Shown here: positions 16,945 through 26,200 of the stretch, piece after piece
Position numbering within the stretch: position 1 is the stretch's first letter
Layout: each line of letters begins with the position of its first letter
Assembly (NCBI RefSeq): GCF_033153115.1
Contig: NW_026889771.1
Coordinates: forward strand, 11,470,001-11,534,000
Direction: 5' to 3'
DNA from: Saccostrea echinata
Taxonomy: Eukaryota
DNA length: 64,000 nt
Position numbers and translations under genes: made by a program
Notes under the pieces: generated by a model
What the model saw: the letters and a program-made list of their open reading frames with translations, nothing else
What the model was told of the DNA's origin: nothing
Databases searched by the model: none

Positions 16945-19900
16945 ATGATGACTTGGAGTCAAATATGTAGCATTATTGGCTGTCCACTAGGACTACTTTA
17001 TATTTTAAAAATCTTCTTGACTCACAAGAAAAGGAAAAATATGAAGGGGAAAGTTGTTCTAATAACAGGCGCCAATTCAGGATTAGGAAAAGGTTTGTTT
17101 TTACAATCTTATTGAATTTAATGTATATCTATTTCCCCAAGGAATTCTATATTGTAGTAAATTGAAAAAAAAAATATAATTTCAATTTTGATTTCAATTT
17201 TCTTTTTCAAATTATTTCAATGAAAATTTTTCTATACTTTCAGCATGTGTTTTTGCATTTCATCAAGCTGGGTGTAAGGTTATCATGGCAGGGAGGAATC
17301 AGGAGCAGTTAAATAAAGTGAGAGAGGAAGTTATTCAAAAGCAGGTACATTCTTGTCTTCTCTGTTCAAAGATGGAGAAAAATTGATTTGGGCAGTCTAT
17401 GTTCACTAAGACAAAACTTACGCAAAATATTTGTCTAATAAAAAAAAATTGAATGAAAATCAATTATAATGATTTTGCTTACAGTTCTCAGACACATTTT
17501 CACCAGAAATTCTCATCATGGATTTGATGGAGTATAAGAATATGCAAGAAGATATTTCCAGGGGATTGAAAATATTTGGACAGATAGACATTCTCATAAA
17601 CAATGCAGGGGTCAGCTATAGAGGGGAGATAAGCACCCATATCGAAAATGAATACAAAAATAATACAAGAAAAAAATACTAAAATAATACAAAAAAAGTA
17701 TATTTTTAATGACCAAATTTGGAACCCTCTAAATCTTGGTTCCAATTTAGGTCAAAAATAATAGACTTTTTAAAAGCCAAACAGAAAAATATATTTTTAA
17801 TATACTTTATTTTTTCGAAATAATACAGAAATGATACACATGACCTGTAAAAACGTATTGTTTTTGTACTTTTGTATTATTTCTCTATTTTCTCTCCAAA
17901 GTATAAAAATAATACAGTCCATAGAAAAGTATAGAAAAAATACAGAATGTATTAATTTTGTATTAGCATATATTATTTTTGTATTTTTTCACCTTTAAGA
18001 ATTAAAATACAAAAAAATATAGAATATATTAATTTTGTATCACATATATTATTTTTGTATTTTTTCATCTGGAACAATTAAAAGTACAAAAAAGAAATAA
18101 AATATGAAAATAATACAGTACACAAAAAAGTATGAAAAAAATATAGAATGTATTAATTTTGTATTAATATGTATTGTTTTTTGTATTTTTATCAGCATGA
18201 AGGATTGTATTTCAAAAATATCAAAAAAGTACAAGAATGAAAGACAAAAAATACATTTAAATGCTTAAAATAATACAAAACAGCGTTTTAAAAACTACAA
18301 AAATGATCATGGGCAAAAGTTGTCATTTGAAGAAAAGGGGTTGGAGATTGAGGTTCTTAAAAGCATCTGTTGATTGTTATTCAAAAATCTTTTATTTATT
18401 TGAAATATTTGTTAAATAACAATTTTAGTAACTCAGTCAGATTACCTTAAATGTACAAATACCTAATTAAAAAGTAATTAATGTGGCCAGGCTACTGATT
18501 CAGCTACCAATTGTAGTCTTGATCTTTCTTTTTACATATAATCTGCTCTTCAATAGTCTTGATATTTTTCACAAGTTTAACTAATCCTGTTTTCTTTGTA
18601 CTTTTACCAAATGTTTCGATCTCTCTGCTTTGCTGTTTCTTTTGTATGGAAAAGGTAGAGGAGTGTTTACTTTGTTGCAGAAGTCCATCTTCAGATCACA
18701 CAACCTGTCATCTCATCTGACTTCATCACTGTGAAATATAGAACAGAATGATATAATAATAAAATTTAATGAACCATTACCTCAACAAAACACACATTTT
18801 CACATCCAAAATAATTCTATATAGATTTTGTTTGGCTCACACACCTGCAATACTTTCTTGAGAGGGATCTTCTTCCTCCATGACTAATCAGCTTTTCTTC
18901 AATGTTCTGCTGGCTAAAATTAACAATAATTATAAATTGAAATTCCAAAAGATCCAGTGGAGTTCACCAAATTCCATACAATTGTACCATTGAAATTACC
19001 TTTCTTTAATCTGGGGTTTCTTAGGGGACAACCATTTGATTTGAAATCTGGAGAAGAAAAAGGGGGGGTGGGGGTGGGGACTGATTTATAAAATATTTTT
19101 AAAAAAATATTTGTAATTAACAATCTGTCCTTGAAAATGTTGAAAGAGTAAACAAAATGTGTGCCCCAGTGTTATTTAAATAAACTGCCCCCCCCCCCGA
19201 ACCCAACCTACCCCCCCCCCCCTTGAAAAAATTTGAGTTTATACAAATTACAGAGTTGTTTTTGAAGGGAAAATAAATAATTCGTCTCTGGTAAACTTGA
19301 AAAAATTGGAATGAATTAGAACTAGGAAGCCAAAGGCTTGAAAATTACCCCCATCTTCCACCCCTCCCTCCCCAATAAGAATTTATCACAAAAACCCTTG
19401 TTCCCCACATGGCCAATAACCGTACTATTTTATCTTTCTACAATACTACAAAAGGGGTAAAAAGGCATTCTTTGTTCCTCTATCTTTGTACTTAGTTATT
19501 ATTTAAAAAACTGAAACTTTAATGTGCTTAAATTATACATAATCTTACCGCAACTGTCGTTGTTTACACTAGAAAAGTCCGGATATGATACCTAAAAAAA
19601 CGTCAGTCTCCTTATGTATTTGCTTTCCTTGGTTCATATATATGATCCTGTGTACCATGATTATGCTGAACTTCTGTTTTTCGATCCATTTTACTCGCGA
19701 GCAAATGAGAGTTTATTCAAAATCACCTCCAGCTTTCTCAACACGTCCCGGGAAGAATTTTCAAAATGGCGTGGGTGAAATATTGTTGACCAATCAGAGA
19801 ACAGTACGGAAGAGTTTTAAAATCTGACCAATCATATTGTGTCATATATACGAAAATTACCGATGTTGAGATCGGAACAGTTAGAGAAAACATATTTACA

Positions 19901-23295: not shown

Positions 23296-26200
23296 TCCCT
23301 TTTTGAACCCCCCTTTTTTTTAACAATTTAATAAAAATATACCTATTTTTTTTTACTAATTTTATTTTTTTAAAATCCTTCCATAAAATGATTGGTGAGA
23401 ACAGCAACTTGATACGTTTCATTAGAAATATTACTATATATCTTATTTTCCAATGAATGAGGTTAAAATCAAACAAGAAACGATGGAAATGTTACCCAAC
23501 GGTTAAATCATCGGGATCGAGATGCCTCTCATAGTTCGATACGTATACGGATACGGATACGTATACGGATACGTCAGATAGAACAATCTCTAATAGCAAT
23601 TAAATGTAAATAGTATAAAAGCAACCTTTATAGCAGTGGTCTTAATTAATAAAATCTGAGAAAAAATATTAATTCCAACAGACTTATTGCAAGGACATTC
23701 TGTAAATTTTCCTAAGTTCAAAGAAATACAAATTTCAGTAAAAGAAAACACTAAGTCCAAAATAAATATTAAAAAAATACATACTGACTGTATAGTATTT
23801 TTTGAAAAATTATTAAGTCCAAATTTAATACAAAAATAATACAGACTAACTGTATGTAATTTTCTGTAAATTTACTAAGTTCAATTTTAATACAAAAATA
23901 ATACAGATTAACTGTATGTAATTTTCTGTAAAATTACTAAGTTCAATTTTAATACAGAAAAAATACACTTGAAAAAAACTAAGTCCACAAAAATACAAAA
24001 ATGATATACTGAAAATAATCTAAGTCCCAAAAAATACAAAAATAATACCCTGTAAAAAATCAAAGTCAGATTTTAATACAAAAACAATCTACCTATTTGT
24101 TGGTGATACAAAAATAATATATTTTTTCTGTATTAATTTTAAACAATACGAAAATGATTGTATTAAAAATATATTAAAAATATACTTTTATGTATTATTT
24201 TTTGATATGGGCAGTACTCAGATACAAGTGGATGAAAGAGTGATGGCTGTTAATTATTTTGGTCAAATTGCTTTAATTAAAGGTATAACTAACTTGAAGA
24301 CAATTTAGAAGATGGTATTTATGTGGAGTACCTTGTATAATGTGTTCAGTGCTACAAAATACCAACACATACATGTAATATACGTATGTCACCTGGTTAA
24401 CAGATGAATCTGGTCTCAATAGCTCAGTGGTTAGAGTGTGTTGGTATGGTATATGGTTTCTGAGAGGCAGTCCCAGTTGTAACTTGATTTCTTCACCATC
24501 TGTTACACTTACGGTGGTGCCAAATCAAGCTTAAAACCAATAATATGGACCCTTAGCTTTTTAGTCTGGAGTTGAATTTTATTATACCCCCTCAAACAAA
24601 GTTAAAGGGGGTTTATTGGAATCACCATGTCCATCTGCTCATCTGTCTGTACCGGTAGACACTTTTTTGTCCAGAGATTGATCTCTGAAACTACTCAATA
24701 TTTTTTCATCAAACTTTCGTAGAATTAATATATACCATTTGAACTTGCACACATGGTATTTTCAGATTGATTTATCAAAATTTTAAAAAGTTATAATTTT
24801 TGAAAAAAATATTTCATTTTACTGTTCATAACTTCTTTGACAAGAATAAGAGGAGTGAAATTCTTGTCTGGACATATTAAACTTTGTTACCAAGAAACTT
24901 CAGAGGATCAATAAAAAGGTAGCTTGTGACCAGAAATATGTGCCTTAACTTTGAACCAAGGTCATTTAAGTCAAGGTCACAGGGTACCAAAGTATTATAT
25001 TATTGATTTAGCCACAACTTAGAAGTGGAAAAATAGTAAAAGCTTATACCTGAGTCAAAGGATACTTGTGATTCAAGGGTTTGTTCTGACCCTGACTCAG
25101 AGTAATTTAGACAAGGTCAAAGTCTCTGGGTTTGCATGAAGTGTGAAATTCTTGTCCATAACTATACTTCATAATGATAAAACTTCCACAGGTCATATTG
25201 TCCTTAGGGTTGATTATGATTATATGGTATGACCCTGATCAAATGTCATTAAGACAAAAGTCAAGGTTACAGAGTTCAGAAAAGTAAAATGTAAATTTCT
25301 GAAAGACAAAACTTTTTATTGGAGGAGTAGCATAAAGCCATGGTGAGGCAACTGAGAAGTTAAATGTTCTTTGGGCCATTTTGATGTTGATAATTTCACT
25401 GCGGATAAATTTTCGTACTCAACACAACATTTATTGCTTTTGACCAGAGGAGTTACAATCTTCATCCTTTTATTACATTTCCACAAAATTCAGGCCTTCA
25501 GAATTTGCTATATAATTTTTTGACAAGATGACAGAATTCTTTTTTTAAGCTCTTTTAAAATGGCCCCTTTTTCTGGTTGCCCTATGAGGGTATTAGTCCT
25601 ATTGGGACAACTTTAGATTTGCCACTGTGCTCAGTTCCAATGAAAAATAAAAGGTGACACAAAGAAATTTACTTTTCAGAGGTTTTACCTCACATGAAAC
25701 AACAAGGAGGTGGATCTATTGTTGGTGTGAGCAGTGTTCAAGGAAGGATTGCCATTCCTTTCAGATCAGCATGTAAGTTGGAACTTTTTAGCATTTTCAT
25801 ATAAAGTGATTGAAAATTGCGTCATCAGCATGCTCTTGGGCGATGGTTGGAGATATGTTATTTTTCAAGCTTGTCTCTGAATGCCCTTTATAGTATTTGT
25901 GAACACATACTAATAGCTGTGTATTATACATGTATATATATAAAACAGTTGCTGTTTTTAGATGCAGCCTCCAAGCATGCTTTCCAGGCTTTTTTGGACA
26001 CTCTGCGAGCTGAGGTGAGCAGTGACAATATCCAAGTGTGCGTTGTCAGTCCTGGGTACATCCAGACCAATCTATCCCAGAACGCAGTTTGCGGTGATGG
26101 ATCATCATACAACAGTAAGAACTTAAAAATTACATACAGTCAAACCTCATTATCTCGAACTCGATGGGACCAAGAAAAAACTTTGAGATATCCGAGGATT

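What the first reader, a model, noticed from the sequence alone, without database searches (positions are those of the whole stretch)
17485..24282. DHRS7B coding exon split by a 6.6-kb composite transposon
Seen: ...GAG ATA AG[CA]-CCCATATC...GATATGGG-[CA]GT ACT CAG... Removing the element and one TSD restores [22 protein letters not shown] exactly. Read-through reaches TAA at 17680-17682, before the catalytic YAASK. All other exons are intact, so the insertion looks recent. Inference: a null allele of a conserved housekeeping SDR captured in this assembly, probably heterozygous. Gene predictors would split or truncate the model.
Basis: seen in the sequence. Interest (0 to 1): 0.75.

Follow-up and report, generated by a model that had tools for sequence, protein, structure and literature searches.

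The report
Transposon breaks oyster DHRS7B allele
A 6.6-kb jumping-DNA element sits inside a coding exon of a conserved lipid-metabolism gene in this rock-oyster sequence and is predicted to knock out that copy, while other oysters express the unbroken version; this is an ordinary kind of mutation, seen unusually clearly.

Summary
Confirmed. A 6,576-bp element (17636-24211; CCC ends, CA duplication) splits coding exon 3 of an oyster DHRS7B-type reductase. Removing it restores a stop-free 310-aa frame, 92% identical to the Saccostrea cucullata protein. Read-through stops at residue 148, before the catalytic motifs. All 6 public runs laid (3 samples, 3 studies) give spliced mRNA across the empty site. 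The skipped ends are not splice sites, so the insertion is a polymorphic allele, not a new intron. No contig bridged the filled left junction (4 of 4 runs, complete list); zygosity is untested. A second copy of the same element (28818-32544, 2% diverged, reversed) lies in the last intron. The family also makes a spliced RNA that reads out through its left end. No transposase was found. The ends resemble animal CACTA/TRC elements, and the nested 2.8-kb insert resembles Pangu. The exons are undecayed while the element is a divergent family member, which favours a recent jump of a ready-made composite. It is a known kind of event and a clean example of transposon-derived load in oysters. Interest 0.25.

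The parts
15827..15856 (+). 3' end of a non-coding leader exon of the DHRS7B-type gene (its start was not mapped)
   Evidence: loose end of the spliced X2 contig before 16918 matches here
16945..17092 (+). coding exon 1 (exon begins 16918; homologs start at the second ATG, 16948); TGxxxGxG motif
17244..17344 (+). coding exon 2
17485..17635 (+). coding exon 3, 5' part (NNAG motif), ending in the left CA duplication 17634-17635
17636..24211 (.). element copy 1, 6,576 bp, non-autonomous, CCC ends, AATACA-rich subterminal tandem repeats (76, 62, 41 bp periods)
17680..17682 (+). premature TAA reached by read-through (148-aa product: 133 host residues plus 15 from the junction and element)
17636..20044 (-). 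region of the element family's spliced RNA; introns 18729-18844 and 18914-19548 (GT-AG on the minus strand); no long ORF
   Evidence: joints in 4 of 4 runs; splice sites and translation
20775..23591 (.). nested 2,817-bp element, AG ends, AAT duplication, first 30 bp perfectly inverted, 130 bp at 85%; Pangu-like, no transposase found
24212..24213 (+). right CA duplication
24214..24282 (+). coding exon 3, 3' part (VNYFG)
25680..25772 (+). coding exon 4 (SSVQG)
25962..26114 (+). coding exon 5 (completes YAASK)
28818..32544 (.). element copy 2, 3,727 bp, reversed, TT on both sides, no nested insert, 39 bp upstream of the last exon
32584..32801 (+). coding exon 6 with the natural stop
   Evidence: X2 contig continues into it (loose end at 26114)

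Best explanation
A non-autonomous DNA transposon with CCC ends and a 2-bp duplication sits inside coding exon 3 of the oyster DHRS7B-type gene on this haplotype, was likely moved in by a CACTA/EnSpm-type transposase encoded elsewhere, and is predicted to make a null allele that segregates beside an intact, expressed allele. Shown: the insertion, the stop at residue 148, the loss of 52 of 80 highly conserved positions including YAASK, the expressed empty allele in other samples, and several insertion sites of the family. Inferred: the element jumped recently as a ready-made composite, with the Pangu-like insert already inside a somewhat divergent donor. Also inferred: its transcript is destroyed or yields a dead N-terminal half, and the sequenced animal was heterozygous and so sheltered the allele.
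For: Exact restoration with a 2-bp duplication. Empty-site spliced contigs in 4 of 4 runs and 4 of 4 runs: 6 distinct runs, 3 samples, 3 studies. The skipped ends read GC..GG, CA..GG, AC..GC or CC..CA over the 3-base slide, never GT/GC..AG (with the sequence). The exons show 0 differences over 424 nt in X1, X2 and X5, and 1 in X6. The restored protein departs from 4 of 80 conserved columns, all four shared with S. cucullata. The element's left end has three different flanks in X3, X4 and X5, plus copy 2 in the window. 19 of 27 listed RNA variant rows in the outer element carry the copy-2 letter, so copy 1 is the odd one. 1% decay in place would leave the exons untouched with probability about 0.014. 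CCC ends, 2-bp duplications and spliced RNA from truncated copies are described for animal TRC elements (PMC1636069).
Against: No run showed either filled junction, so the insertion rests on the assembly alone. One search listed all pieces for the left junction; the lists were cut. No genome is held, so neither a second intact locus nor other composite copies could be checked. No transposase was found in 60 frames, so the superfamily rests on the ends only. Two 2%-diverged copies in one gene, one of them 39 bp from a splice acceptor, could mean the haplotype has been dead longer than the exons suggest.
Confidence: 0.8

Rival explanations
1. The broken copy is a redundant duplicate: the insertion is fixed here, and the expressed mRNA comes from a near-identical second locus.
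For: No genome was available to exclude it. A 0-difference mRNA could come from a very young duplicate.
Against: The gene lies between a UCH-domain gene and TMEM11, and human USP22, DHRS7B and TMEM11 are listed in one band, 17p11.2, so this looks like the ancestral locus. The mRNA uses this locus's leader exon. tblastn finds one copy in the window.
Confidence: 0.07
2. The allele is leaky because the element is spliced out, exactly or through cryptic sites (a GT at 17611 joined to the AG at 24221 would be in frame).
For: A T-rich tract and AG lie at the element's right end (acceptor candidates 24214, 24221).
Against: Exact removal has no splice-type ends. The GC at 17633 joined to AG 24214 would shift the frame. 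The in-frame cryptic pair deletes 11 residues from a segment that is 21 residues long in 120 of 120 homologs. No such joint was listed in the four runs (those animals may not carry the insertion).
Confidence: 0.04
3. An assembly artefact or a somatic insertion in the sequenced tissue.
For: No contig bridged the left junction in 4 of 4 runs.
Against: Both junctions fall exactly on the family's termini, as defined by copy 2 and by the X4 and X2 contigs ending at 17636. The duplication is matched and the gene stays collinear. Copy 1 has its own variants and a nested insert, so it is not a collapsed copy of copy 2.
Confidence: 0.04
4. The insertion is old: the element decayed in place and received the nested insert afterwards on a long-sheltered dead haplotype.
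For: Copy 1 is about 0.9% off the expressed family type (10 own sites in 17636-18728; hand tally). The nested insert's arms are only 85% alike. A second copy sits near the last acceptor.
Against: No decay in 424 exon bases, and no stop, frameshift or allele-specific loss of a conserved residue in 310 codons.
Confidence: 0.05

Closest known systems
Animal CACTA-related (TRC) transposons, e.g. SmTRC1 and its truncated copies (PMC1636069; passages and section 5 read)
   Same: CCC at the start of the inverted ends, 2-bp target duplication, internal tandem repeats, spliced RNA also made from truncated copies.
   Different: No Transposase_21 or any ORF with a credible Pfam match. The inverted end is short (8 bp perfect, 18 of 21). 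No sequence comparison with TRC elements was made.
Pangu group of PHIS transposons, Pangu_CGig of Crassostrea gigas (PMC4482050; passages, section 6 and supplement rows read)
   Same: The nested insert starts with AG and duplicates AAT; Pangu_CGig duplicates AWT.
   Different: Longer inverted arms (130 bp at 85%, against 11-40 bp); neither a DDE_Tnp_4 nor a Myb ORF was found.
DHRS7B/PexRAP acyl/alkyl-glycerone-phosphate reductase (PMC13200781; passages read)
   Same: Classical SDR with TGxxxGxG, NNAG and YxxxK. The named vertebrate hits among the best 120 are labelled 7B. The flanking genes match human 17p11.2.
   Different: The oyster enzyme's activity and essentiality are untested. Prenatal lethality is reported for mouse knock-outs only.
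Transposon-derived recessive load in oysters (PMC5804265; passages read)
   Same: [quoted passage not shown]
   Different: No fitness effect, frequency or segregation is measured here.

Membership tests
animal CACTA/EnSpm (TRC) | inverted ends beginning CCC | tested here: met
   both copies; feature from PMC1636069
animal CACTA/EnSpm (TRC) | 2-bp target duplication | tested here: met
   CA/CA with the empty site seen; TT/TT at copy 2, empty site not seen
animal CACTA/EnSpm (TRC) | tandem or subterminal repeats | tested here: met
   76, 62 and 41 bp arrays; AATACA at 14-21 per kb near the ends against 1.3 per kb in the window
animal CACTA/EnSpm (TRC) | spliced internal transcript | tested here: met
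   two GT-AG joints in 4 of 4 runs; from family copies, not shown for this copy
animal CACTA/EnSpm (TRC) | Transposase_21 domain | tested here: not met
   0 of 60 frames of 45 aa or more gave a transposase family; so described as TRC-like, not filed as a member
ISL2EU | AT-specific 2-bp duplication | tested here: not met
   CA and TT here; AT for ISL2EU-1_CGig
Pangu (nested insert) | ANT/AWT duplication and AG or GG ends | tested here: met
   AAT and AGAG; features; empty site in copy 2 and in 4 of 4 runs
Pangu (nested insert) | DDE_Tnp_4 transposase plus a second ORF; 11-40 bp inverted ends | tested here: not met
   no ORF hit; arms of 130 bp; described as Pangu-like only
DHRS7B orthologs | SDR domain and motifs | tested here: met
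   adh_short on exon pieces and on P0002; motif positions
DHRS7B orthologs | nearest named vertebrate proteins are 7B | tested here: met
   4 of the 120 listed rows are named vertebrate 7B and none is named vertebrate DHRS7 or 7C (query was P0002, 92% identical to the window protein)
DHRS7B orthologs | neighbours USP22 and TMEM11 | tested here: met
   UCH and Mito_morph_reg domains flank the gene; same human band; the USP22 name and the human gene order are recalled
DHRS7B orthologs | clade membership against DHRS7 and DHRS7C | not tested
   no DHRS7/7C sequences were among the fetched hits
DHRS7B orthologs | acyl/alkyl-glycerone-phosphate reductase activity | not testable with these tools
   needs an enzyme assay
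transposon-derived spliceosomal intron | precise removal with GT/GC..AG ends | tested here: not met
   ends over the whole 3-base slide are not splice sites

The most novel reading that the evidence does not exclude
The allele is not merely a recessive null. The element family carries its own promoter, and its spliced RNA runs out through the left end into flanking DNA. At this locus copy 1 would fire antisense into DHRS7B exons 3 to 1, and copy 2 would fire sense into the last exon. Antisense read-out could damp the intact allele in trans, giving a molecular route to the partly dominant load reported in oysters.
Probability: 0.07. Interest if true: 0.65.

Novelty: new member of a known kind. 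Interest (0 to 1): 0.25.

Why it matters
Oysters carry a high load of harmful alleles, and transposons are a proposed but little-tested source (PMC5804265). This is a PCR-typable candidate in a gene whose mouse knock-out is mostly prenatal lethal (PMC13200781), so segregation in crosses could test that idea at one locus. In practice it also warns that the assembly's gene model will look broken although the species has a working gene. The event type itself is common.

Tried and rejected
Whole-genome search: none held, so copy number, a second DHRS7B locus and other composite copies are unchecked. Transposase remnants: 60 frames against Pfam gave one sub-threshold MDN1_4th hit, rejected as chance (also seen). 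The 63-aa frame in the element RNA had 0 hits among 29 candidates, and the longest frame of the nested insert had 0 hits. Rfam over 16500-33500: 0. Filled junction in public runs: not seen in X1, X3, X4, X5; contigs drop rare variants and a decayed RNA would be faint, so this is no evidence of absence. No run is on record as RNA; I call the contigs RNA-derived because they join exons at GT-AG sites. Direct local hop from copy 2 to copy 1: rejected as a recent event (74 mismatches, 17 gap events). Inversion between the two reversed copies: rejected, as each keeps its own duplication and the exons between them are in order. Solved structures: only distant SDRs. Paper searches returned 0; searches listed no title on this allele or element family, but only listings were seen and Repbase could not be searched, so absence from print is not established. 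Earlier-findings look-ups were empty.

Full report
Observation. The element spans 17636-24211 (6,576 bp), starts CCCATATC, ends GATATGGG and has CA on both sides. Removing it with one CA gives a 933-nt frame of 310 codons, one terminal stop and GT-AG at every coding intron; of removals of 0 to 7 extra bases only 2 has both a duplication and the homolog-length frame. Left in place, the frame stops at TAA 17680-17682 after residue 148. The break is in codon 134; VNYFG (146), SSVQG (174) and YAASK (188) lie after it, as do 52 of the 80 columns that are at least 90% conserved in 120 homologs (120 of the 128 proteins held, those of 270 aa or more). That the Ser and YxxxK residues are catalytic is established SDR knowledge, recalled.

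The gene. The restored protein is 92.2% identical to a Saccostrea cucullata protein and 77-78% to other oyster-type hits, so the host is a rock-oyster relative. NCBI names those hits 'SDR family protein 7-like'. With the S. cucullata protein as query, 4 of the 120 listed rows are named vertebrate 7B and none vertebrate DHRS7 or 7C. A UCH-domain exon lies upstream on the other strand and TMEM11 downstream; human USP22, DHRS7B and TMEM11 are listed together in 17p11.2 (PMC3422354, two passages). No tree was built. In mammals DHRS7B reduces alkyl-glycerone phosphate in ether-lipid synthesis, and most knock-out mice die before birth (PMC13200781, three passages); for oysters this is inference.

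Empty allele. Ten public runs were listed and six were laid. In one search, 4 of 4 runs (3 samples, 3 studies; one carries a different organism label) have a contig that joins the exons at GT-AG introns and crosses the site, skipping 6,578 bases. The skipped ends are not splice sites at any point of the 3-base slide, so this is an allele without the element and not an intron. In one search, with complete lists, 4 of 4 runs (2 samples) continue from 17635 straight into the rest of the exon, and none bridges exon and element. That silence is weak, because contigs drop rare forms. The first three exons differ at 0 of 424 bases in three runs and 1 in the fourth. Zygosity and a second locus could not be tested.

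The element. It lacks the nested insert and differs at 74 of 3,706 aligned bases with 17 gap events. The left end has three other flanks in three runs, so the family is dispersed. Both ends are rich in AATACA and carry 76-, 62- and 41-bp tandem arrays. No transposase was found. CCC ends, 2-bp duplications, tandem repeats and spliced RNA from truncated copies are described for animal CACTA-related TRC elements (PMC1636069, passages and section 5); ISL2EU duplicates AT and does not fit. The nested 2,817-bp insert (20775-23591) starts AG and duplicates AAT, as Pangu elements do, including one from the Pacific oyster with AWT (PMC4482050, passages, section 6, supplement rows). Both assignments rest on ends alone, so neither is filed as a member.

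The element's RNA. All four runs show two joints inside the element that are GT-AG on the minus strand (18729-18844, 18914-19548). One 1,793-base contig holds these exons, runs to the left terminus and goes on for about 130 bases into another flank. The spliced RNA has only short frames. These contigs come from other copies of the family; nothing shows that copy 1 is transcribed. If it is, it would read antisense into the gene's first exons, and copy 2 sense into the last exon.

Age. Copy 1 is the odd member: 19 of the 27 listed variant rows in the outer element carry copy 2's letter, 13 of 14 among rows seen in two or more samples (the table showed 40 of 220 rows). Over 17636-18728, by hand tally, copy 1 has 10 own sites, copy 2 has 6 and the X2 contig 1. 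Decay of 1% in place would leave 424 exon bases untouched with probability about 0.014, and the restored protein's four departures from conserved columns are all shared with S. cucullata. The simplest reading is a recent jump from a divergent donor that already held the nested insert. This predicts other 6.6-kb copies, which I could not look for. Against it, two independent insertions in one gene could mean a longer-sheltered haplotype.

Mechanism. Shown: insertion, premature stop, expressed empty allele elsewhere, dispersed family. Inferred: mobilisation in trans by a CACTA-type transposase; loss of function through truncation, decay of the RNA or early polyadenylation (an AATAAA at 18096 is private to copy 1); shelter in a heterozygote. 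Cryptic splicing could restore the frame only by deleting 11 residues from a segment of fixed length in 120 of 120 homologs.

Comparison and verdict. Exon-breaking transposon insertions are a known kind of mutation, and a review names transposons as a speculative source of the oyster's high load (PMC5804265, passages). For search listings 20, 25, 31, 34, 36 and 41 I saw titles and abstract starts only, apart from the papers named above; bioRxiv supplements are closed and Repbase was not available, so a prior description of this family cannot be excluded. The finding is real and well anchored, but ordinary: a new member of a known kind, interest 0.25.

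Noticed in passing
window 11862-12245 (-), 35816-36370 (-): A UCH-domain gene head-to-head upstream and TMEM11 downstream flank DHRS7B, echoing the human USP22-DHRS7B-TMEM11 neighbourhood at 17p11.2: possibly very old microsynteny (human order recalled).
   Followed up: partly
window 28818-32544: Second copy of the same element, reversed, 39 bp before the last exon's acceptor; its second intron acceptor reads AAAG where copy 1 has ACAG. Whether it is polymorphic is unknown.
   Followed up: partly
window 26129-26322, 10385-10601, 23095-23161: A small inverted-repeat element, very abundant in the laid runs, with a relative upstream and a fragment inside the nested insert.
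   Followed up: no
window 35099-35688 and 14429-14774: 232-bp tandem unit (2.5 copies, 92% alike) with a tRNA-like head by eye, and an inverted relative upstream; likely SINE-derived.
   Followed up: no
window 46832-47953 (+): 373-aa open frame with F-box and leucine-rich repeats.
   Followed up: no
window 63238-63992, 59134-59848, 38222-38368: Palindromic or foldback arrays (21-bp unit near the window end; 146-159 bp hairpins elsewhere).
   Followed up: no
window 19770-19832 (-): Two CCAAT-type boxes and a GCCATTTT motif in the first-exon region of the element's RNA: a candidate internal promoter.
   Followed up: partly
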